Under the pieces are notes generated by a model, which did not search any database, was not told the DNA's origin, and saw only the letters and a program-made list of their open reading frames with translations. Of a stretch of DNA of 6,095 nucleotides, positions 1 through 6,095 are shown in pieces. Source of the stretch: a virus (lineage: Duplodnaviria > Heunggongvirae > Uroviricota > Caudoviricetes); the IMG/VR virus record IMGVR_UViG_2744054675_000004, positions 1 to 6,095 of that record. One strand, given 5' to 3'. Position numbers and translations under genes: made by a program. Position 1 is the first letter of the stretch; each line of letters starts with the position of its first letter.

Positions 1-205
1 TTTCATGTCGTGCATTGTTTGCAATGATTTTTGCTTCATAAGCAGAAATTACGTCATCTTCATGAATATCTTTCAGAAAGCTGGTGTCAAGACGTTGTAC
101 TATTTCAGCGTTCATTGATCGCTTATTGGCTTTTGCAGAAATTTCTATTTTTTCTTTTACTTCGACGGGAAGTCTGATCCTTAGTTGTGGATCTTCTCTG
201 CTCAT
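1..205 (-). CDS. mnt: Mnt-like ribbon-helix-helix repressor, 3' end runs off the window (partial)
   Basis: Minus-strand ATG at 205..203 opens a frame with no stop before position 1; it is absent from the ORF track because it is incomplete. Translation starts MSREDPQLRIRLPVEVKEKIEISAKANKRSMNAEIVQRLDTSFLKD, which matches my recollection of the P22 Mnt N-terminus (MARDDPHFNFRMPMEVREKLKFRAEANGRSMNSELLQIV). It is divergent from the arc/ant genes, as in P22 immI. Confidence 0.7.
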   Translation of the reverse strand, partial: MSREDPQLRIRLPVEVKEKIEISAKANKRSMNAEIVQRLDTSFLKDIHEDDVISAYEAKIIANNARHE

Positions 206-251
206 GTTCTTCACCAAATATTGAGTTACTTGCAATGATTGAAGTATGCCT

Positions 252-311
252 CACCGTGTGCTTGACATCAATGACGCACGGTGTGACAATTATTTTGCCC
301 CACGGTGGGGC
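252..311. promoter_or_regulatory. Divergent mnt / arc-ant control region: candidate sigma70 promoter and RHH operator palindromes
   Basis: TTGACA at 262-267, a 17-nt spacer, then GACAAT at 285-290 (plus strand, reading toward arc). Palindromic heptamers CACCGTG at 252-258 and CACGGTG at 277-283 and 301-307, the last inside the 15-bp near-perfect palindrome GCCCCACGGTGGGGC at 297-311. The CCACGGTGG core matches my recollection of the P22 mnt operator. Confidence 0.45.
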
Positions 312-325
312 TAAGGAGATATGAA

Positions 326-493
326 ATGCAAAAAGCAAAAGAGATGTGTCAACGACGAGTTCGTTTTCCGGACGATGTGAAGTTAGCTATTGAAAGAAAT
401 GGCGAAAAAGAATGCCGAAAGTTCAATACAGAGATTATCTATCAGCTGAGGAAAGTGTATGGACTCACTGGTGAGAAGAATAGCGTGGCATAA
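326..493 (+). CDS. arc: Arc-like small ribbon-helix-helix repressor (55 aa)
   Basis: ATG at 326 preceded by AAGGAG at 313-318. The ORF track starts this frame at an upstream GTG (305), but the ATG with the Shine-Dalgarno is the likelier start. Product MQKAKEMCQRRVRFPDDVKLAIERNGEKECRKFNTEIIYQLRKVYG... has the size and the basic beta-strand-then-helix pattern of P22 Arc, and sits first in the ant operon as in P22. Confidence 0.65.
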   Translation: MQKAKEMCQRRVRFPDDVKLAIERNGEKECRKFNTEIIYQLRKVYGLTGEKNSVA

Positions 494-503
494 AACAGCG
501 AAG

Positions 504-514
504 CCCCACGGTGG
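504..514. promoter_or_regulatory. Second CCCCACGGTGG copy in the arc-ant intergenic region (candidate operator or RNA structure)
   Basis: CCCCACGGTGG at 504-514 repeats the core of the 297-311 palindrome. It lies between the arc stop (493) and the ant ribosome-binding site (AGGA at 553-556). Confidence 0.3.
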
Positions 515-565
515 CCAGACCGTCAGGGCTTCAGTATCGTAAAACTACGTATAGGAATTAACGAC

Positions 566-1504
566 ATGACGAGTATAGCAACAGCAGTATCTACTATCAA
601 CGTGCCATTCCACGGCGCAGAGCTTTATGTTGTCAATCACAACGGCGAACCGTATACCCCAATGAAACCTATCGTTGAGGGAATGGGGCTAGACTGGAAA
701 TCTCAACATAAGAAGATTTCTCAACGCTTCTCGAAGGGTATGGTGGAAATCACCATACCTTCTGCCGGTGGGGTGCAAGCCATGATTTGTATGGCTTTAC
801 GAAAATTGGCAGCTTGGTTGAACAGCATCAGCCCTAACAAAGTCCGCCCTGAAATCCGCGACAAGGTAATCCAGTATCAGGAAGAGTGTGACGATGTGCT
901 CTACGAGTACTGGACTAAAGGCCATGTGGTTAACCCACGCAAAGCTAAAAAGGCGTTGCCGGGTAAAATAACAACTGAACAGCAGGAAGCCATTAAACAA
1001 CTCGTCATGAGTCGCGGTCAGTCTCTGCCAAAAGAAAAACAGGCTAAGGCGATGATCACCATGTGGTCGTCACTGAAATCTCATTTTGGCTGTTCGTACA
1101 AAGAAATTGGTGAAGATCAATTTGCCGAAGCGTTGTCTCTTGTTGCTCGGGTTCCGCTTGAAGGGGAGTATCTCCCTGCTGGATCTGCATCAGAGAATGA
1201 TGAAGTGGCAGTCAAGATGTTAGATGCGCTTCGTGAGGCAATTAAAACACAGACAAAATGTTATGGTTATCCATTGAAGCCAGGCTACCGCAGTCTGATT
1301 CATTCGCCGTCGGGTGTTCTCGGCCTGACGGAGAACTCACTGCTGATGAATCTGCTGAACCAGTTACAGGAAGACGGGCACGATGTATCGGGCGCGGCGG
1401 CGGAGCTGACCACCATGTTCTGCTACATCGTTGGTGTGAGCAAATGCCTGCGTGATATCCAGACGCACGCGGAATACATCAACGACAAGGCAGGGTTCTT
1501 CTGA
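566..1504 (+). CDS. ant: Phage antirepressor (Ant-type N-terminal domain plus conserved C-terminal module), 312 aa
   Basis: Complete ORF in the track. It sits immediately downstream of the arc-like gene in the same orientation (immI synteny). The N-terminal region (VPFHGAELYVVNHNGEPYTPMKPIVEGMGLDWKSQHKKI...) resembles AntA/P22-Ant type antirepressor N-domains from memory. The C-terminal ~75 aa are near-identical to the C-terminus of the 2560..3255 protein. Confidence 0.8.
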   Translation: MTSIATAVSTINVPFHGAELYVVNHNGEPYTPMKPIVEGMGLDWKSQHKKISQRFSKGMVEITIPSAGGVQAMICMALRKLAAWLNSISPNKVRPEIRDKVIQYQEECDDVLYEYWTKGHVVNPRKAKKALPGKITTEQQEAIKQLVMSRGQSLPKEKQAKAMITMWSSLKSHFGCSYKEIGEDQFAEALSLVARVPLEGEYLPAGSASENDEVAVKMLDALREAIKTQTKCYGYPLKPGYRSLIHSPSGVLGLTENSLLMNLLNQLQEDGHDVSGAAAELTTMFCYIVGVSKCLRDIQTHAEYINDKAGFF

Positions 1505-1530
1505 CAGAACGGCGGCACAGGGACGTGCAA
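1277..1530. repeat. Left arm of an inverted repeat (3' end of ant plus ~25 bp downstream)
   Basis: Manual alignment with the reverse complement of 2536-2787 gives about 11 mismatches over ~230 coding nt (~95%). Similarity continues past the stop codon through GGCACAGGGA(C/T)GTGC. Confidence 0.85.
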
Positions 1531-1554
1531 AACGAAACTAGCGTGACATGTCAC

Positions 1555-1580
1555 AGGCCGCTTTCGCGGCCTTGTTTTTA
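1555..1580 (+). terminator. Rho-independent terminator candidate after ant
   Basis: Stem AGGCCGC (1555-1561), loop TTTC, stem GCGGCCT (1566-1572), followed by TGTTTTTA. Confidence 0.55.
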
Positions 1581-1739
1581 ACGAATGCCACCGCCGCCAG
1601 GGCGGGAATCCGCAGAACGCCCACCGCAGCGGGAGCCGTCAGCAGCAGTGTCGCTGTCGTGCTGACAACGACCGGCAAAGGCCTGAGTTGAAGCTACCAG
1701 AGACAATAAAACGAACAGTGCAGCAAATGCTTTTTTCAT
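1578..1739 (-). CDS. Hypothetical small secreted peptide (53-aa precursor with predicted signal peptide)
   Basis: Internal ATG of the track ORF 1578..1811. Product MKKAFAALFVLLSLVASTQAFA|GRCQHDSDTAADGSRCGGRSADSRPGGGGIR has a textbook N-terminal signal peptide with an AxA cleavage motif and a 31-aa, two-cysteine, Gly/Arg-rich mature part. The ribosome-binding site is weak (GGAAA), and the frame is GC-rich and could be fortuitous. Confidence 0.3.
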   Translation of the reverse strand: MKKAFAALFVLLSLVASTQAFAGRCQHDSDTAADGSRCGGRSADSRPGGGGIR

Positions 1740-1816
1740 TGTGAAATTTCCATCTATAAGCCACCTCAATGTGGCGTCAATGAGTGTAGCACTGACTTTT
1801 GTTTCGTCCACAAAAA

Positions 1817-1833
1817 AGCCCGCAGCGCGGGCT
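1817..1833 (-). terminator. Rho-independent terminator ending the minus-strand cargo operon
   Basis: On the minus strand: AGCCCGC, loop GCT, GCGGGCT, then TTTTTTG. The hairpin overlaps the TAG stop at 1834..1832. It is A-tract-flanked on the other side, so it may act bidirectionally. Confidence 0.65.
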
Positions 1834-2272
1834 ATTCTTCTTCATCATTAAAAAGCGGATTGTTGTTTCCATCTGATGAAAGGAAAGGTATGTGTTCTCT
1901 TGAAAATCCAACAATGACAATTTCATTATCATTTTTTGCATAATGAATGCATTCATTAGAATGCCTTCCGCCAGGGTTGAAATTTAAGTTAATGGTATAA
2001 TTCTTAAATGTGTTTGGATACCATGTTGGCCCACAATGATAATGCCAATAATTCTCTTGCTCATAATTGTCTGAGCCGGGAATTTTATCATGGTTATCAT
2101 CAACCCACGAGGGCTTGTTTTTTCCAACAAGCGCCCTTCCATTGGCAACATCCTCTAAAAAACTTTGTATGATTTTTATTTCATCATCAGTAAGGAAAGG
2201 TCCGTCTACAGCGAAAGGGGTGTTGCTTTCCCCATGTAGAAAACTATTAGATATTCTAATGTTAAACTTCAA
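1832..2272 (-). CDS. Hypothetical acidic protein, 146 aa, no recognised family
   Basis: This is the 3' 146 codons of the track ORF 1832..2413. I propose a TTG start at 2272..2270 preceded by AGGAG at 2283..2279, because the first 47 codons of the long form overlap the upstream 55-aa gene in another frame and look non-protein-like (W/R-rich). Product MKFNIRISNSFLHGESNTPFAVDGPFLTDDEIKIIQSFLEDVANGRALVGKNKPSWVDDNHDKIPGSDNYEQENYWHYHCGPTWYPNTFKNY...SREHIPFLSSDGNNNPLFNDEEE. The region is AT-rich and net acidic with an acidic tail. Confidence 0.5.
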   Translation of the reverse strand: MKFNIRISNSFLHGESNTPFAVDGPFLTDDEIKIIQSFLEDVANGRALVGKNKPSWVDDNHDKIPGSDNYEQENYWHYHCGPTWYPNTFKNYTINLNFNPGGRHSNECIHYAKNDNEIVIVGFSREHIPFLSSDGNNNPLFNDEEE

Positions 2273-2292
2273 GGAAAACTCCTGATGTGCTT

Positions 2293-2460
2293 CTATTTGG
2301 AGCGAAATGCCGCCTTGAAGTCGCTGAAAGATGTTCCTGTCTGGTAAACCATATCCTTGTCGCGCTCTTTGCTTGCGCGGCCAAGCATAACTTTTCCAAT
2401 GACATCCCAGCATTGCTTGGCTTGTTTATTGTGCTGAGTACGATTTTTCAACGCTGTCAT
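2293..2460 (-). CDS. Hypothetical small basic protein, 55 aa, first gene of the cargo operon
   Basis: Not in the ORF track (below its size cut-off). ATG at 2460..2458 with a strong Shine-Dalgarno (minus-strand AAAGGAGG, 6-nt spacer), stop TAG at 2295..2293. Product MTALKNRTQHNKQAKQCWDVIGKVMLGRASKERDKDMVYQTGTSFSDFKAAFRSK is net basic. Confidence 0.5.
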   Translation of the reverse strand: MTALKNRTQHNKQAKQCWDVIGKVMLGRASKERDKDMVYQTGTSFSDFKAAFRSK

Positions 2461-2472
2461 ATCGCGCCTCCT

Positions 2473-2515
2473 TTACCTTTAAGGTAATAGTACGCTATTC
2501 ACCCACAGTCTGCAA
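2473..2515 (-). promoter_or_regulatory. Candidate sigma70 promoter with overlapping TTACC-N5-GGTAA operator (site 1) for the cargo operon
   Basis: Minus strand reads TTGCAG (plus 2515..2510), 17 nt, TACTAT (2492..2487). Palindrome TTACC-TTTAA-GGTAA at 2473-2487 abuts the -10 and the Shine-Dalgarno. Confidence 0.4.
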
Positions 2516-2535
2516 TCTGTACAGAATTATTTAAA

Positions 2536-2787
2536 GGCACATCCCTGTGCCACCGCCCGTCAGAAGAACCCTGCTTTGTCGTTGATGTACTCCGCGTGCG
2601 TCTGGATATCACGCAGGCATTTGCTCACACCGACGATGTAGCAGAACATGGTGGTCAGCTCCGCCGCCGCGCCCGATACATCGTGCCCGTCGTCCTGTAA
2701 CTGGTTCAGCAGATTCATCAGCAGTGAGTTTTCCGTCAGGCCGAGAACACCAGACGGCGAGTGAATCAGGCTACGGTAGCCGGGCTT
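2536..2787. repeat. Right arm of the inverted repeat (3' end of the Bro-N antirepressor gene plus ~25 bp downstream)
   Basis: Reverse complement aligns to 1277-1530; see left arm. Confidence 0.85.
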
Positions 2788-3255
2788 CAGCGGGGCGCTG
2801 TAGGTTTTGTTCTCTATCTTCATCGCCTGCATTACTGCTGACGCCGTGGCGTTGGCTACCTGGTCGGCAACCATCTTTATGCGTTCTTCCTGCGGGAGCG
2901 AGTTTTTAATGTAACTTCCGGTGCGGCGGATCTGAGGAAGAACCTCACCTGTAACCCATTTACGAAAGCGGTAGGGGATAGTGCCTGGTGTCACCGCATC
3001 GCGGCAGCGGAGGATCAGTGTGTAGAGGCCTGACTCGGAGATGATGATCGATTCTTGCTCACCGCCAGGGGTGTCGGTTGAAGCGACGCCCTTCTCATCA
3101 TCATCAAGTTTTCGAACAGCATCTCGATGGTTTGCTATGCCTATAGCCCGACAAACATCTGAAGCGATAAACCATGGCTCACCATTAATGACGATTACCC
3201 GTATATCGGCTTGGGATTCGAAAGAAAAAATGGACGTGCTTTTTGTAGCTGTCAT
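2560..3255 (-). CDS. Bro-N-domain antirepressor-like protein sharing the Ant C-terminal module, 231 aa
   Basis: Complete ORF in the track. The N-terminus (FESQADIRVIVINGEPWFIASDVCRAIGIANHRDAVRKLDDDEKGV ... FRKWVTGEVLPQIRRTGSY) fits the Bro-N domain signature from memory. The C-terminal 75 aa (KPGYRSLIHSPSGVLGLTENSLLMNLLNQLQDDGHDVSGAAAELTTMFCYIVGVSKCLRDIQTHAEYINDKAGFF) differ from the 566..1504 protein at a single residue (E/D). Confidence 0.8.
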   Translation of the reverse strand: MTATKSTSIFSFESQADIRVIVINGEPWFIASDVCRAIGIANHRDAVRKLDDDEKGVASTDTPGGEQESIIISESGLYTLILRCRDAVTPGTIPYRFRKWVTGEVLPQIRRTGSYIKNSLPQEERIKMVADQVANATASAVMQAMKIENKTYSAPLKPGYRSLIHSPSGVLGLTENSLLMNLLNQLQDDGHDVSGAAAELTTMFCYIVGVSKCLRDIQTHAEYINDKAGFF

Positions 3256-3451
3256 AGTGGTTACCTTTTAGTCTGGTTAATCACCACTACCGACGCCAAT
3301 CGGTTGGTGGTGAACTGTGCAGGGTTGGCGTAACCGGCTAAAAGGACCCGGCGCACCTTTCGGTGCCCCCACACAGCCCACCATAATACGAATGTGGCCG
3401 TGCTATACGCATAAAAAAACCGCTTGCGCGGTGAATGCGCCTTTTAGTAAT

Positions 3452-3524: not shown

Positions 3525-3539
3525 TTACCGCAAAGGTAA
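3525..3539. promoter_or_regulatory. TTACC-N5-GGTAA palindrome, site 2
   Basis: TTACC-GCAAA-GGTAA, centred about 93 bp upstream of site 3. Confidence 0.4.
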
Positions 3540-3616: not shown

Positions 3617-3633
3617 ATTACCTTTAAGGTAAT
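3617..3633. promoter_or_regulatory. TTACC-N5-GGTAA palindrome, site 3, just upstream of the 242-aa gene
   Basis: ATTACC-TTTAA-GGTAAT ends 20 bp before the ATG at 3653. The half-sites and spacer are identical to site 1. Confidence 0.45.
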
Positions 3634-3652: not shown

Positions 3653-4381
3653 ATGGAAGTTTTCTGGATAGTTGTTGGTGTGGTTGCGGTGATTATTTAC
3701 GTTATCAACCAGAACAAGACTAAGATCTCTGATCGTACGGTCGTTAATCATAACAAAACGATAAAGACCGAAGATGGGGAGATAACGATTAATCGTACAC
3801 AGGTGATAGAACACACCTCTACTCAGTTTCAAAAAACTGGAGGTAATGCGCCTAATATTTCCGCACCTCCTGCTTATGATAGTGCGGTAATCCAGACATA
3901 TTATAAACAGCAGGAGTTAGCAAAAGAGAGGCAACTGATTCAGCCAAAGCCGTTTACAGCTGAGCTTCCACCTGGAGTGTCAACGCCTCCGGCATATCAT
4001 GGAAGATTCCCTGGTGATGACATATCGTCTCAGTCATCTAAAAAAGCACCTCAGGCAGTATCAGAGCCAGCAAGAATACCTTCTGTATCGCCGCCAAAAG
4101 AAGAATCAGCTAACAGAGTTTCAAGTGGTAGCAAGCAGTGCTTGCGATGCAGAATAAACCTTCCGTATGAGAAGTTCAGGAAATCGTCAAAAAATCCAGA
4201 TGGATTGACTAAGTGGTGTGCAAGGTGTCTCGATGGCCCAAAGAATACACGTCATATGAAGTGGTGCCCAATTTGTAATGTCCGCAGAAAACGAACCAGC
4301 TTTTACCCTAATAATCAAAATGCGGATGGCTTAATGGCATGGTGTAAAACGTGCTGGGACGAGCACAAAGCGAAACGATAG
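3653..4381 (+). CDS. Hypothetical membrane-anchored protein with a Pro-rich linker and C-terminal tandem CxxC zinc-ribbon repeats, 242 aa
   Basis: Complete ORF in the track, with AGGA 7 nt upstream of the ATG. N-terminal hydrophobic helix EVFWIVVGVVAVIIYVI followed by NQNKTK. Low-complexity middle with two PPAY motifs. C-terminus has C-x2-C ... NPDGLTKWC-x2-C and C-x2-C ... NADGLMAWC-x2-C (8 Cys in 4 CxxC pairs). It is followed directly by a terminator. Confidence 0.65.
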   Translation: MEVFWIVVGVVAVIIYVINQNKTKISDRTVVNHNKTIKTEDGEITINRTQVIEHTSTQFQKTGGNAPNISAPPAYDSAVIQTYYKQQELAKERQLIQPKPFTAELPPGVSTPPAYHGRFPGDDISSQSSKKAPQAVSEPARIPSVSPPKEESANRVSSGSKQCLRCRINLPYEKFRKSSKNPDGLTKWCARCLDGPKNTRHMKWCPICNVRRKRTSFYPNNQNADGLMAWCKTCWDEHKAKR

Positions 4382-4404
4382 GCCGCTCTAGCGGCCTTTT
4401 CTTT
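4381..4404. terminator. Bidirectional rho-independent terminator between convergent genes
   Basis: GGCCGC-TCTA-GCGGCC followed by TTTTCTTT on the plus strand. The same hairpin lies directly after the stop of the minus-strand gene 4403..4660. Confidence 0.65.
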
Positions 4405-4660
4405 ATGTGGTTTGTTTTCGTAATTGTTCGGCACAATAGTCGAGATGTGTTTGCAGATCCTGCATAGACATCTGTGAGCTGGTGACGTAGTTAATCAGTG
4501 CAGTCAGTTCGGCAAGTGGGCCATCGACATTAAATCCATCCTTATCGAGATCCCGGAGTAATTTCATCAAGTGCGATCCCTCCACCAGTGACCTGACGCC
4601 TCCCGGCGTGTGAATCCTTTCGGTAAATCCGTCTTCCAGTGGATAGTGATACTGCTGCAT
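4403..4660 (-). CDS. Stand-alone homolog of the antirepressor C-terminal module, 85 aa; candidate SOS-inducible antirepressor
   Basis: Track ORF 4403..4678 starts at a TTG; the ATG at 4660..4658 with GGAG 8 nt upstream is the likelier start. The product (…HTPGGVRSLVEGSHLMKLLRDLDKDGFNVDGPLAELTALINYVTSSQMSMQDLQTHLDY…) aligns with the C-terminal module of both antirepressors (HSPSGVLGLTENSLLMNLLNQLQEDGHDVSGAAAELTTMFCYIVGVSKCLRDIQTHAEY) at roughly 40-45% identity by eye. A LexA box lies 20 bp upstream. Confidence 0.65.
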   Translation of the reverse strand: MQQYHYPLEDGFTERIHTPGGVRSLVEGSHLMKLLRDLDKDGFNVDGPLAELTALINYVTSSQMSMQDLQTHLDYCAEQLRKQTT

Positions 4661-4679: not shown

Positions 4680-4699
4680 AACTGTATATTTATACAGTA
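4680..4699. promoter_or_regulatory. LexA (SOS) box
   Basis: AACTGTATATTTATACAGTA matches the E. coli consensus TACTGTATATATATACAGTA at 18 of 20 positions, with CTGT-N8-ACAG intact. It lies 7 bp upstream of the Shine-Dalgarno of the minus-strand gene 4403..4660. Confidence 0.7.
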
Positions 4700-4735: not shown

Positions 4736-4752
4736 ATTACCCGAAAGGTAAT
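4736..4752. promoter_or_regulatory. TTACC-N5-GGTAA palindrome, site 4
   Basis: ATTACC-CGAAA-GGTAAT in the divergent region between the LexA-boxed small gene and the tailspike gene. Confidence 0.4.
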
Positions 4753-4855: not shown

Positions 4856-6095
4856 ATGACGGTCTCAACCGAAGTTGACCACAACGAATACACTGGTAAC
4901 GGAGCTACGACATCATTTCCGTATACCTTCCGTATTTTCAAAAAAACCGACCTGGTTGTTCAGGTGTCTGACCTGAACGGGAACGTAACAGAATTGGTTC
5001 TGGATACCGGTTATAAGGTAACTGGAGCGGGCACTTATAGTGGCGGTGAAGTGGTTCTCCCGTCGCCGCTTGCTGCTGGCTGGCGAATTACGATAGAGCG
5101 TGTGCTTGATGTGGTGCAGGAGACTGATCTTCGCAATCAGGGAAAATTTTTCCCCGAAGTTCATGAAGATGCATTTGACTACCTGACGATGCTGATCCAG
5201 CGATGTTTTGGGTGGTTCAGACGTGCATTGATGAAACCATCTTTGCTTGCAAAATATTACGATGCAAAGCAAAACAAAATTTCTAACCTTGCAGATCCAT
5301 CATTTGAGCAGGACGCTGTAAATAATCGCTCAATGCGTAATTATGTCGATGCTGCAATCGCCGGGGTTGTTGGTGGTTTTGGTTGGTTTATACCGTCAGG
5401 AAGCGGGGCAAGACAACGAACATTTCAAAGCAAAATGAGGGATATAATTTCTCCTTGTGATTACGAAGATAATATTTTTATGATTAAGGAGTTGATATCC
5501 AAAGGCAAAAATGCCGCTGTTTTTAACTCATATTATACTTTTGTTATTACTGTTGGCGAATGGGGTGATTACCCTACACTCAAAGATGCAATCATTGCAG
5601 CCCAGTCAATGAGGCCTATGTGGGATGGTGGTAATGCTTTCTGCGAAATAAGAATTAAGACCGGGCATATTATCAACTATCAAATTGAATTCAGTTCAGG
5701 TGTTGATTTGTCTTGGATTAAAATAACATCAGAAGACTCAGTGGTTTTCTCTGACACTCGTTTGTTTACTAAAATCGTTAGAACGTATTACGAATACAAG
5801 TATTTATTTTACATTTGCGATGCAGCAAAAAGTCCTGTATTTGCTATTCAGATCGAAGAAAATAGAGATGATAGCGATGTTTGTGCATTTATTGTAACTC
5901 AAAAAGCTGAACTTAATTTCTATCCGTATTCAGGTGCTCGAAAGTTCTACGTTGGAATTCATGGTAGTTTTGGTGCAAAAATTAGTGCATATCATACCGG
6001 ATGTGCTCCTGATGAGGAAAGTGTTGCTGCATATATGCCAGAAGGGTATTACGTATGTGATTTTTCTTATAGCAGATACTCTTCCCTGCAACTGG
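4856..6095 (+). CDS. Tailspike / tail fiber protein, 5' part (runs off the window)
   Basis: ATG at 4856 with GGAG 7 nt upstream; open to the window end (absent from the track because there is no stop). The N-terminus (EYTGNGATTSFPYTFRIFKKTDLVVQV ... QNKISNLADPSFEQDAVNNRSMRNYVDAAIAG) resembles the T7 gp17-type tail-fiber N-terminal particle-binding domain from memory. The downstream AT-rich part contains GDYPTLKDAI, reminiscent of the P22 tailspike motif SDYPTLQDA at the start of its beta-helix. Confidence 0.8.
   Translation, partial: MTVSTEVDHNEYTGNGATTSFPYTFRIFKKTDLVVQVSDLNGNVTELVLDTGYKVTGAGTYSGGEVVLPSPLAAGWRITIERVLDVVQETDLRNQGKFFPEVHEDAFDYLTMLIQRCFGWFRRALMKPSLLAKYYDAKQNKISNLADPSFEQDAVNNRSMRNYVDAAIAGVVGGFGWFIPSGSGARQRTFQSKMRDIISPCDYEDNIFMIKELISKGKNAAVFNSYYTFVITVGEWGDYPTLKDAIIAAQSMRPMWDGGNAFCEIRIKTGHIINYQIEFSSGVDLSWIKITSEDSVVFSDTRLFTKIVRTYYEYKYLFYICDAAKSPVFAIQIEENRDDSDVCAFIVTQKAELNFYPYSGARKFYVGIHGSFGAKISAYHTGCAPDEESVAAYMPEGYYVCDFSYSRYSSLQL

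What the first reader, a model, noticed from the sequence alone, without database searches (positions are those of the whole stretch)
1277..2787. Two antirepressor genes with different N-terminal domains share a ~95% identical 3' module arranged as an inverted repeat around the cargo
The last ~230 nt of the + strand ant gene and of the - strand Bro-N gene are almost identical at nucleotide level (one amino-acid difference in 75 residues), and the similarity runs ~25 bp past the stop codons, while the N-terminal domains are unrelated. This points to recent recombination or gene conversion and modular domain swapping. The two arms are in inverted orientation ~1 kb apart, so homologous recombination between them would invert the cargo segment without damaging either gene, moving the cargo operon from downstream of the Bro-N gene to downstream of ant.
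Basis: seen in the sequence. Interest (0 to 1): 0.65.

Follow-up and report, generated by a model that had tools for sequence, protein, structure and literature searches.

The report
Inverted antirepressor modules flank flippable cargo
Two converging phage antirepressor genes end in nearly identical copies of a repressor-binding domain, and related E. coli prophages carry the ~1 kb accessory-gene cassette between these copies in either orientation, so recombination between the copies does flip it; this is an ordinary recombination mechanism seen in an undescribed place.

Summary
Window 1275-1528 and 2537-2789 form an inverted repeat. The 230 coding nt are 95.7% identical, with every difference at a third codon position and one E/D change. 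Homology continues ~24 nt past both stops.

The shared module is a full copy of the SPC32H-type small antirepressor (PDB 5D50, which binds the phage repressor). Here it is fused to a P22_AR_N domain (ant) and to a Bro-N domain. A third, diverged, stand-alone copy with a perfect LexA box lies at 4403-4660.

The window is the immI-like region of a phiV10/TL-2011b-like (Uetakevirus) E. coli prophage. The inter-arm segment is a cassette hotspot with at least 9 different cargos. The cargo here is a predicted RelE-fold toxin with a small upstream ORF.

The predicted alternative orientation exists in nature:
- 3 of 36 complete E. coli genome records carry it.
- One IMG/VR contig carries it.
- Two near-isogenic pairs differ essentially only by the flip: ETEC4085 versus UTAK-6, and an IMG/VR contig versus TL-2011b.

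Breakpoints lie inside the arms and no invertase gene is annotated, so homologous recombination is the likely cause. The arms come from a population-wide allele pool (dS about 0.21), so they are not a recent copy. Whether flipping changes expression was not tested.

The parts
566..1504 (+). ant gene: P22_AR_N N-terminal domain fused to an SPC32H-Ant-like C-terminal module
   Evidence: ORF. Pfam P22_AR_N covers residues 12-121. Residues 231-307 match PDB 5D50 chain E, E 6.8e-14.
1275..1528 (+). Left arm of the inverted repeat: last 76 codons of ant, the stop codon and a ~24-nt post-stop hairpin
1529..2536 (.). Unique invertible segment (cassette hotspot) between the arms
   Evidence: Found in both orientations in relatives. 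At least 9 different cargos occupy this position.
1555..1579 (+). Terminator-like hairpin plus T-run directly after ant, lying inside the invertible segment
1578..1739 (-). 53-aa signal-peptide/membrane protein gene (mem53), conserved in most relatives
   Evidence: ORF. phrog_14503, E 2.4e-40. tblastn map of relatives.
1817..1833 (.). Palindromic bidirectional terminator hairpin after the cargo operon; a recombination joint in ETEC1749
1832..2272 (-). 146-aa cargo protein (TTG start) with a predicted RelE/ParE-superfamily toxin fold
2293..2460 (-). 55-aa upstream ORF with a strong RBS; putative antitoxin partner
   Evidence: ORF. Annotated as a CDS in relatives. Its position relative to the toxin-fold gene; the function is inferred.
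2473..2515 (-). Cassette promoter-like site (TTGCAG-17-TACTAT) with the palindrome TTACCTTTAAGGTAA at its -10 and start region; flips with the cargo
   Evidence: Sequence. Palindrome statistics. Conserved upstream of different cargos, with variable DNA starting right after the palindrome. The promoter was read by eye and is not among the hits.
2537..2789 (-). Right arm of the inverted repeat: last 76 codons of the Bro-N gene, the stop codon and the post-stop hairpin
2560..3255 (-). Bro-N antirepressor gene with the same SPC32H-Ant-like C-terminal module
   Evidence: Pfam Bro-N covers residues 17-107. Residues 150-226 align to 3-79 of the 86 residues of 5D50_E, E 1.9e-13.
4403..4660 (-). Third, diverged (~43% aa), stand-alone copy of the module: orthologue of the SPC32H small antirepressor Ant
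   Evidence: 5D50_E, E 1.7e-47. phrog_450. Annotated at 258 nt in relatives.
4682..4697 (.). Perfect LexA-box consensus CTGTATATTTATACAG, 22 nt upstream of the stand-alone antirepressor gene
   Evidence: sequence.

Best explanation
The two arms are two copies of one functional module. The module is a complete SPC32H-type small antirepressor domain (the part that binds and disassembles the phage Rep repressor) plus a short post-stop hairpin. In two convergent genes of an immI-like region of a phiV10/TL-2011b-like prophage it is fused to different N-terminal domains (P22_AR_N and Bro-N).

The module stays nearly identical at nucleotide level across many genes and phages. It is under strong purifying selection, presumably for binding the conserved Rep, and its alleles are continually exchanged by homologous recombination.

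The arms bracket a hotspot where accessory cassettes sit between a conserved promoter/operator and terminators. The cassettes are often toxin-antitoxin-like. General homologous recombination between the arms (host RecA or the phage's own RecT/exonuclease) occasionally inverts the whole segment, sometimes with gene conversion of an arm. Both antirepressor ORFs are preserved.

After a flip, the cassette and its promoter lie co-directional with ant instead of the Bro-N gene. The strong terminator then sits behind the Bro-N gene instead of ant.

Shown: the repeat, the identity of the module, the hotspot, natural inversion isomers, and breakpoints inside the arms. Inferred: which recombination enzyme acts, binding of the module to Rep, and any effect of orientation on expression. 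I consider the flip most likely a near-neutral structural polymorphism.
For: Repeat anatomy.

Module identity:
- It matches the PDB 5D50 antirepressor.
- SPC32H Ant is described as a tetramer that binds two Rep dimers and breaks the Rep tetramer (PMC9638917).
- The Bro-N antirepressor ORF4 of phage ZX5 carries this module at 95.7% nt. Over-expressing it shifted ZX5 towards lytic growth (PMC9782041).

Context.

Hotspot: at least 9 cargo types lie between the same flanks.

Flipped forms:
- ETEC4085 (L003), ETEC1749 (L004), SCU-387 (L115) and IMG/VR contig L046.
- In a junction-specific search, 3 flipped versus 33 native among the complete E. coli genome records listed with ant.

Isogenic pair 1, L046 versus TL-2011b:
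- The 5,968-nt left flank is 99.97% identical.
- The inverted segment is 100% identical from position 5874 to the contig end.
- The crossover maps to a 55-nt interval inside the arm.

Isogenic pair 2, ETEC4085 versus UTAK-6, both complete genomes:
- The re-inverted ETEC4085 query matches UTAK-6 in one piece, 2,614 nt at 99.3%.
- There are 2 differences in the 1,006-nt cargo, none in the right arm or in the right-hand gene up to its start, and 14 plus 1 indel confined to the ant arm. That arm has become like the other arm.

Other points:
- Arm alleles, including the post-stop SNPs, are shuffled between gene types.
- TL-2011b encodes RecT-like and exonuclease VIII proteins. Its only annotated site-specific recombinase is the integrase.
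Against: - No read-level evidence that both orientations coexist in one culture, and no measure of rate.
- L046 ends inside the right arm, so for that contig a short-read assembly could have chosen the orientation arbitrarily.
- ETEC4085 does not show the simple reciprocal chimeric-arm pattern. Both its arms are of the antA-arm type, so either conversion accompanied the crossover or the true ancestor differed from UTAK-6.
- Flipped forms are a minority (~8%). The native orientation is the only one seen in the 23 single-arm IMG/VR relatives examined. This could mean flips are rare or mildly deleterious.
- Several of the 33 native records are probably clonal, and ETEC4085 and ETEC1749 may share one flip event, so independent inversions number about three.
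- The cargo carries its own promoter-like site and terminators, which argues against a strong regulatory effect of orientation.
Confidence: 0.8

Rival explanations
1. The flipped arrangements arose by cassette replacement, not by in situ inversion. A donor phage in which the cassette already lay downstream of a module-bearing gene recombined with the recipient. One crossover fell in the module and the other in a terminator or in the second arm.
For: - In the 23 single-arm IMG/VR loci that carry the module (L005-L027) the cassette sits co-directionally behind an N-domain+module gene. The unit 'module -> promoter -> cargo' therefore travels together.
- ETEC1749 is a composite of two converging cassettes joined exactly at the palindromic terminator. 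That needs inter-molecular recombination.
- Arm alleles form a common pool.
Against: - In both near-isogenic pairs the flanks, the cargo and mem53 are the same sequences on both sides of the comparison. Only orientation and arm SNPs differ.
- A donor supplying an identical cassette in the opposite orientation would itself have to be an inversion isomer.
- No P22_AR_N+module gene followed co-directionally by cargo was found outside the two-arm context.
Confidence: 0.12
2. The alternative orientation is an assembly artefact, because a 250-bp inverted repeat makes the orientation of the enclosed segment ambiguous.
For: L046 terminates 34 nt into the right arm, as expected when an assembly graph breaks at a repeat. 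The longest perfect run between arms is 59 nt, which is longer than many assembly k-mers.
Against: - Three flipped cases are RefSeq 'complete genome' chromosomes from three different strains, with two different cargos and a composite.
- The arms carry diagnostic SNPs every ~20-25 nt.
- The ETEC4085 ant arm shows a coherent conversion tract, not a random join.
- The assembly methods of those genomes were not checked here.
Confidence: 0.05
3. It is a programmed invertible element, like Mu G / P1 C segments or shufflons. A site-specific recombinase acts on the short palindromic hairpin at the inner edge of each arm and switches which antirepressor operon expresses the cargo.
For: - A conserved small palindrome (GGCACAGGGATGTGCC) lies exactly at the inner boundary of homology in both arms.
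- The strong terminator and the cargo promoter flip together, so the transcriptional wiring does change.
Against: - No invertase or second recombinase is annotated in the complete TL-2011b genome, and no further long ORF lies between the arms in the window.
- The L046 crossover maps 14-69 nt upstream of the stop codon, inside the coding arm and not at the hairpin.
- The ETEC4085 tract spans the whole arm.
- Orientation is strongly skewed, ~92% native.
- No alternative coding ends are created.
Confidence: 0.03

Closest known systems
SPC32H Ant-Rep antirepression system (PDB 5D50; Kim & Ryu 2013 and Kim et al. 2016, as cited in PMC7380047 and PMC9638917)
   Same: - The shared module aligns to residues 3-79 of the 86-aa Ant.
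- The stand-alone copy at 4403-4660 is a close orthologue (E 1.7e-47).
- That copy has a perfect LexA box, matching the LexA-controlled antirepressor paradigm.
- The host phage is of the same epsilon15-like type.
   Different: Here the domain also occurs as the C-terminus of two larger fusion proteins with P22_AR_N and Bro-N heads. No LexA-box match lies near either fusion gene's start. The two fused copies form an inverted repeat. Rep binding by the fusions is untested.
P22 immI region (mnt-arc-ant) and P22 Ant
   Same: - Gene order: an Arc-family (Mnt-like) gene, an arc-like gene, then ant with a P22_AR_N domain, next to the tailspike gene.
- The region is an accessory module that many relatives lack.
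   Different: The C-terminal half is not P22_AR_C; no Pfam hit was found. It is the SPC32H-type domain. P22 has no second convergent antirepressor and no inter-gene cassette hotspot, as far as I recall.
Site-specific invertible segments of phages (Mu G/Gin, P1 C/Cin, e14 P/Pin) and shufflons
   Same: A ~1 kb phage segment bounded by inverted repeats is found in both orientations in natural isolates.
   Different: - Those systems have a dedicated serine or tyrosine invertase.
- They have short fixed crossover sites.
- They swap alternative 3' coding ends of tail-fibre or pilin genes.
- Here there is no invertase, crossovers are distributed within 250-bp coding arms, and the coding sequences are unchanged.
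Domain shuffling in Bro-N / KilA-N / Ant-type phage regulators (Iyer et al. 2002, recalled from memory) and phage 'boundary sequence' mosaicism
   Same: One C-terminal module is combined with three N-domain families. There are sharp homology boundaries at the domain junction and at terminators.
   Different: The specific pairing with the SPC32H Ant domain, and its consequence (an intragenomic inverted repeat that mediates inversion), were not found in the literature searched.
Prophage accessory-gene or defence hotspots (for example the P2/P4 hotspots, recalled from memory; hyper-variability hotspots, bioRxiv 10.1101/2024.10.15.618418, title and abstract only) and recombination between prophage repeats in E. 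coli O157 (PMC8743559, title and abstract only)
   Same: Conserved flanks enclose many alternative small cassettes, several of them toxin-antitoxin-like. Homologous recombination between phage repeats produces inversions.
   Different: The flanks here are inverted copies of a coding domain inside one prophage, and the inversion is ~1 kb rather than chromosomal scale. No cargo protein matched PADLOC defence models.

Membership tests
SPC32H-type small antirepressor (Ant, PDB 5D50) | Sequence homology across the whole ~86-aa domain | tested here: met
   Ant C-terminus E 6.8e-14. Bro-N protein C-terminus E 1.9e-13, covering residues 3-79 of 86. Stand-alone copy E 1.7e-47.
SPC32H-type small antirepressor (Ant, PDB 5D50) | SOS (LexA) control of the gene | tested here: met
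   Met only for the stand-alone copy: a perfect CTGT-N8-ACAG box at 4682-4697. The only other match, with one mismatch, is at 3361-3376 and is at chance level. Ant has arc/mnt-type neighbours instead.
SPC32H-type small antirepressor (Ant, PDB 5D50) | Binds the cognate Rep repressor and disassembles its tetramer | not testable with these tools
   Inferred from homology. Indirect support: over-expression of ZX5 ORF4, which carries this module, promoted lytic growth (PMC9782041).
P22 Ant (P22_AR_N + P22_AR_C) | P22_AR_N domain | tested here: met
   PF10547, E 5.9e-45.
P22 Ant (P22_AR_N + P22_AR_C) | P22_AR_C C-terminal domain | tested here: not met
   No Pfam hit in the C-terminal half at E <= 0.01. 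That region matches 5D50 instead.
Bro-N family antirepressors | Bro-N N-terminal domain | tested here: met
   PF02498, E 2.3e-21, residues 17-107.
Site-specific invertible DNA segments (Gin/Cin/Hin/Pin type, shufflons) | Linked invertase or recombinase gene | tested here: not met
   No further long ORF lies between the arms in the window; the seven principal gene products scanned gave no recombinase domain. The complete TL-2011b annotation has only the integrase plus RecT and exonuclease VIII.
Site-specific invertible DNA segments (Gin/Cin/Hin/Pin type, shufflons) | Fixed short crossover site at the repeat boundary | tested here: not met
   The L046 crossover interval lies 14-69 nt upstream of the stop codon. 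ETEC4085 shows an arm-wide conversion tract.
Site-specific invertible DNA segments (Gin/Cin/Hin/Pin type, shufflons) | Both orientations coexist in one population | not testable with these tools
   Needs read-level data.
Homologous-recombination inversion between inverted repeats | Extended inverted homology with runs above the minimal processing segment | tested here: met
   254 nt at ~95% with a longest perfect run of 59 nt.
Homologous-recombination inversion between inverted repeats | Natural isomers that differ only by orientation, with breakpoints inside the repeats | tested here: met
   TL-2011b versus L046. UTAK-6 versus ETEC4085.
Type II toxin-antitoxin, RelE/ParE superfamily (cargo) | Toxin with a RelE-like fold | tested here: met
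   [not shown]
Type II toxin-antitoxin, RelE/ParE superfamily (cargo) | Small adjacent antitoxin gene and demonstrable toxicity or neutralisation | tested here: inconclusive
   A 55-aa ORF with a strong RBS lies directly upstream but has no family hit. Toxicity is not testable here.
Phage accessory-gene (moron) hotspot | Many alternative gene sets between conserved flanks | tested here: met
   At least 9 cassettes, with variable DNA beginning right after the conserved palindrome and ending at the terminator or mem53.

The most novel reading that the evidence does not exclude
The inverted Ant-domain modules and the enclosed cassette form a recombination-driven flip-flop and cassette-capture platform. 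The conserved arms let any phage carrying the module acquire or exchange cassettes. Flipping re-assigns the cassette (here a RelE-fold toxin-antitoxin pair) and the strong terminator between two differently regulated antirepressor transcription units. One unit (ant) sits beside arc- and mnt-like genes; the other (the Bro-N gene) has the candidate Rep-operator palindrome upstream. The result would be heritable, reversible differences in when the cargo or the antirepressors are expressed.
Probability: 0.15. Interest if true: 0.7.

Novelty: new variant of a known kind. Interest (0 to 1): 0.5.

Why it matters
- The finding identifies the conserved 3' module as the actual repressor-binding antirepressor domain. 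This prophage type therefore carries three versions of one anti-repressor, each in a different regulatory setting. The stand-alone copy has a LexA box. Ant sits next to arc- and mnt-like genes. The Bro-N gene has the genome-wide palindrome upstream.
- It gives a concrete, sequence-resolved example of a coding repeat inside a phage serving both as a hotspot boundary for accessory cassettes and as a substrate for inversion, with natural before-and-after pairs.
- For genome analysis, it warns that the orientation of this segment is polymorphic and can be mis-assembled.
- For phage biology, it offers a tractable system for measuring homologous inversion rates and testing whether cassette orientation matters.
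- It does not reveal a new mechanism.

Tried and rejected
- **Within-genome homogenisation of the arms (concerted evolution).** Arms in the same genome are not significantly closer than arms from different genomes: 8.8 versus 9.4 differences, permutation p = 0.085. I therefore do not claim recent conversion for this window.
- **Defence-system identity of the cargos.** No PADLOC hit for 10 cargo proteins. No NCBIfam hit for the window's small proteins. Pfam recognises only YafO_toxin, DUF4760 and DUF2335 among the cassettes.
- **Direct sequence link between the 146-aa cargo protein and YafO.** BLASTP was not significant (E 1.5). Only the fold search links it to RelE-type toxins.
- **Flipped forms among isolated phages.** None was found. 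Only TL-2011b carries ant in the phage collection, in native orientation.
- **Invertase.** None is annotated.
- **Prior description in the literature.** Three full-text searches found no description of this repeat, hotspot or inversion. The Kim & Ryu 2013 paper is not held, so its content is cited second-hand.
- **Arc or Mnt as the binder of the TTACC-N5-GGTAA palindrome.** Rejected, because the palindrome is also present in relatives that lack the arc-ant module. In TL-2011b it clusters around the HTH repressor gene.
Full report
**1. Observation**

The inverted repeat is real.
- The repeat finder reports arms 1236-1505 / 2559-2828 (270 nt, 90%) and a second short pair, 1510-1528 / 2537-2555, beyond the stop codons.
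- A codon-registered comparison shows that identity is 17-43% in 30-nt windows starting before 1235. It passes through a short 53-67% transition and rises sharply at ~1275.
- Positions 1275-1504 versus 2560-2789 have 10 mismatches in 230 nt (95.7%). All are at codon position 3, and there is one E/D replacement.
- Over 76 codons, dS is 0.21 and dN/dS is 0.027. The longest perfect run is 59 nt.
- Homology continues through a small hairpin, GGCACAGGGA(C/T)GTGC. It ends at 1528 on the left and 2537 on the right, with a 1-nt indel.
- The two N-terminal domains are different Pfam families: P22_AR_N (566-1504, +) and Bro-N (2560-3255, -).

**2. Context**

The window matches the region between the internal-virion genes and the tailspike gene of phiV10/TL-2011b-like (Uetakevirus) E. 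coli prophages. The gene order is:
- the 3' end of an Arc-family (Mnt-like) gene, and an arc-like gene
- ant
- a 53-aa membrane protein (mem53, 1578-1739, -)
- a 146-aa and a 55-aa two-gene cassette (1832-2272 and 2293-2460, -)
- the Bro-N gene
- a 242-aa zinc-ribbon protein (3653-4381, +)
- an 85-aa gene (4403-4660, -)
- the tailspike gene

**3. What the shared module is**

The C-terminal 77 residues of both proteins match the 86-aa 'anti-repressor protein' of PDB 5D50. E is 6.8e-14 for Ant and 1.9e-13 for the Bro-N protein, and the alignment covers residues 3-79. The stand-alone 85-aa gene is a close orthologue (E 1.7e-47).

5D50 is the Rep-Ant complex of Salmonella phage SPC32H. That Ant is described as a tetramer that binds two Rep dimers and breaks the repressing tetramer (PMC9638917). 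The review PMC7380047 groups SPC32H (Kim & Ryu 2013) with the Salmonella prophages whose antirepressor is made after LexA self-cleavage. Consistent with this, a perfect LexA box, CTGTATATTTATACAG, lies at 4682-4697, 22 nt upstream of the stand-alone gene.

The arms are therefore two fused copies of the repressor-binding domain proper, and the window encodes three versions of it. The Bro-N antirepressor ORF4 of phage ZX5 carries the same module at 95.7% nt identity. Over-expressing it promoted the lytic cycle (PMC9782041).

**4. Modularity**

In related loci the same module, at about 95% nt identity or more, is joined to several different heads:
- several P22_AR_N alleles
- at least five Bro-N alleles (53-77% aa identity to the window's N-domain)
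- AntA-type heads (PF08346)

RefSeq also annotates ORF6N-type partners.

Arm divergence shows no structure by gene type or by genome:
- within a genome, 3-15 differences in 231 nt, mean 8.8
- between genomes, ant arm versus the other arm, 9.4
- ant arm versus ant arm, 8.0
- other arm versus other arm, 8.6
- permutation p = 0.085

The post-stop SNPs also occur in all combinations. The arms are therefore drawn from one population-wide allele pool. The ~95% identity reflects purifying selection plus frequent exchange. It does not reflect a recent copy event in this genome.

**5. The inter-arm segment is a cassette hotspot**

Between the same flanks, relatives carry at least nine different cargos:
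- the 55-aa + 146-aa pair found here
- a 59-aa ORF + a YafO toxin
- a 108-aa ORF + a YafO-like 170-aa protein
- a DUF4760 protein
- a 108-aa ORF + a DUF2335 protein
- a 72-aa + 125-aa pair
- a 211-aa protein
- a 74-aa membrane protein
- a 69-aa + 272-aa pair

Variable DNA begins immediately after a conserved promoter-like stretch that ends in the palindrome TTACC-N5-GGTAA. It stops at a palindromic terminator, or at mem53.

The IMG/VR relatives that carry this cassette (L005-L027) lack the arc-ant module and have a single arm. In them the cassette always lies co-directionally behind the N-domain+module gene.

**6. Test of the inversion idea**

I built the in-silico flipped isoform and searched 5,426 complete E. 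coli genomes.
- ETEC4085 matched from the ant N-domain through the flipped cargo in a single piece. Its annotation shows ant(+), 55-aa(+), 147-aa(+), mem53(+), then a converging AntA-type antirepressor.
- ETEC1749 has the 55/146 cassette flipped and facing a native YafO cassette.
- A junction-specific query gave 3 flipped records (ETEC1749, ETEC4085, SCU-387) against 33 native among the records listed with ant.
- SCU-387 carries a third cargo (210-211 aa) plus mem53 in the flipped orientation.
- Among the IMG/VR loci with ant, 13 are native and one (L046, YafO cargo) is flipped.

**7. Near-isogenic pairs**

(a) L046 versus phage TL-2011b.
- The 5,968-nt left flank is 99.97% identical.
- The segment is inverted and 100% identical from position 5874 to the contig end.
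- The crossover lies between 5873 and 5929, which is 14-69 nt upstream of the ant stop codon.
- Caveat: the contig ends 34 nt into the right arm, so a short-read assembly could have chosen the orientation.

(b) ETEC4085 (flipped) versus UTAK-6 (native). Both are complete chromosomes.
- The re-inverted ETEC4085 sequence matches UTAK-6 over 2,614 nt in one piece at 99.3%.
- The left flank is essentially identical.
- The cargo differs at 2 of 1,006 nt.
- The right arm and the right-hand gene are identical up to the gene's start; two mismatches lie ~290 nt beyond it.
- The other 14 substitutions and one indel all lie in the ant arm. That arm has become like the other arm: the arms differ at 12 sites in UTAK-6 and at 5 in ETEC4085.

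Pair (b) is the pattern expected for a crossover with an associated gene-conversion tract. Alternatively, the ancestor's arm may already have been converted.

The three flipped two-arm genomes measured have low arm divergence (3, 5 and 5 differences; L046's right arm is truncated).

**8. Mechanism**

No invertase is annotated in the complete TL-2011b genome. It does encode RecT-like and exonuclease VIII proteins. The breakpoints are distributed inside the coding arms, not at a fixed site. Homologous recombination, by host RecA or by the phage recombinase, is therefore the best-supported mechanism.

Inversion leaves both ORFs intact, because the arms encode the same peptide apart from one E/D position.

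What changes is the wiring.
- The strong terminator at 1555-1579 now follows the Bro-N-side gene instead of ant.
- The cassette, with its promoter-like site (TTGCAG-17-TACTAT, 2487-2515, read by eye) and its palindrome, becomes co-directional with ant.

The cassette carries its own signals (for the terminators). The native orientation predominates at ~92%. I therefore judge the flip most likely near-neutral. A regulatory role is not excluded and was not tested.

**9. Other recombination joints**

Terminator hairpins also act as joints.
- In ETEC1749 the two converging cassettes share the palindromic hairpin AGCCCGC-GCT-GCGGGCT exactly.
- L039 joins the ant terminator to the similar hairpin that follows the 242-aa gene in the window (4380-4397). 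This deletes mem53, the cargo, the Bro-N gene and the 242-aa gene.

**10. Novelty**

All the ingredients are known:
- the SPC32H Ant domain
- the P22-type immI module
- domain shuffling of Bro-N and Ant regulators
- accessory-gene hotspots
- inversion by recombination between inverted repeats

Three literature searches found no description of this repeat, this hotspot or its inversion polymorphism. It is a new variant of a known kind. The finding is solid and of moderate interest.

Noticed in passing
window 2473-2487, 3525-3539, 3618-3632, 4737-4751; L116 (TL-2011b) 14 sites: The palindrome TTACC-N5-GGTAA occurs 4 times in the window (0.1 expected) and 14 times in TL-2011b (0.9 expected). Pairs flank the HTH repressor gene gp10. 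Single or paired sites precede the integrase gene, gp14, the terminase gene, gp25, the cargo, the Bro-N / 242-aa divergent region and the stand-alone antirepressor gene. It is a candidate genome-wide operator of the phage Rep. If so, the 'cargo' promoter would be repressed in lysogens, which is unusual for a moron.
   Followed up: partly
window 4682-4697 and 4403-4660 (-): A perfect LexA box lies 22 nt upstream of an 85-aa orthologue of the SPC32H small antirepressor (PDB 5D50, E 1.7e-47). This is the likely SOS-induction switch of this prophage. The listed 91-aa TTG ORF probably starts at the ATG at 4660.
   Followed up: yes
[not shown]
   Followed up: partly
L004 (ETEC1749) 5130-5150; window 1817-1833: In ETEC1749 a flipped 55/146 cassette and a native YafO cassette converge on one shared palindromic terminator hairpin, and mem53 is absent. 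The terminator palindrome itself seems to serve as a recombination joint.
   Followed up: partly
L039 5925-6040; window 1555-1572 and 4380-4397: Two similar terminator hairpins (AGGCCGC-N4-GCGGCCT) follow ant and the 242-aa gene. L039 appears to be a deletion between them that removes mem53, the cargo, the Bro-N gene and the 242-aa gene.
   Followed up: partly
window 3653-4381 (+): This 242-aa protein has an N-terminal hydrophobic segment and two C-terminal Cys-rich zinc-ribbon repeats. The repeats weakly resemble endonuclease VII, HNH and Lar-like PHROG families. The gene is present or absent among relatives, and is disrupted or only a misc_feature in TL-2011b.
   Followed up: no
window 2790-3255 (-) and 566-~900 (+); loci L001-L050: Mosaicism also occurs below domain level. 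Among relatives only the first ~70 residues of the Bro-N proteins and the first ~100 residues of the P22_AR_N proteins vary strongly. The rest of each protein is nearly invariant.
   Followed up: no
window 1-1541 versus relatives H4-H9 and L005-L027: Many relatives match the window only from position 1542 onward and lack the whole mnt-arc-ant block. That block ends 13 nt after the left arm, so it is an optional insertion, and the inverted repeat exists only in phages that have it.
   Followed up: partly
L001, L038, L043, L049 (inter-arm region): Several relatives have a precise internal deletion that fuses the 3' part of mem53 to the cargo terminator, so mem53 is lost while the flanks stay conserved.
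   Followed up: no
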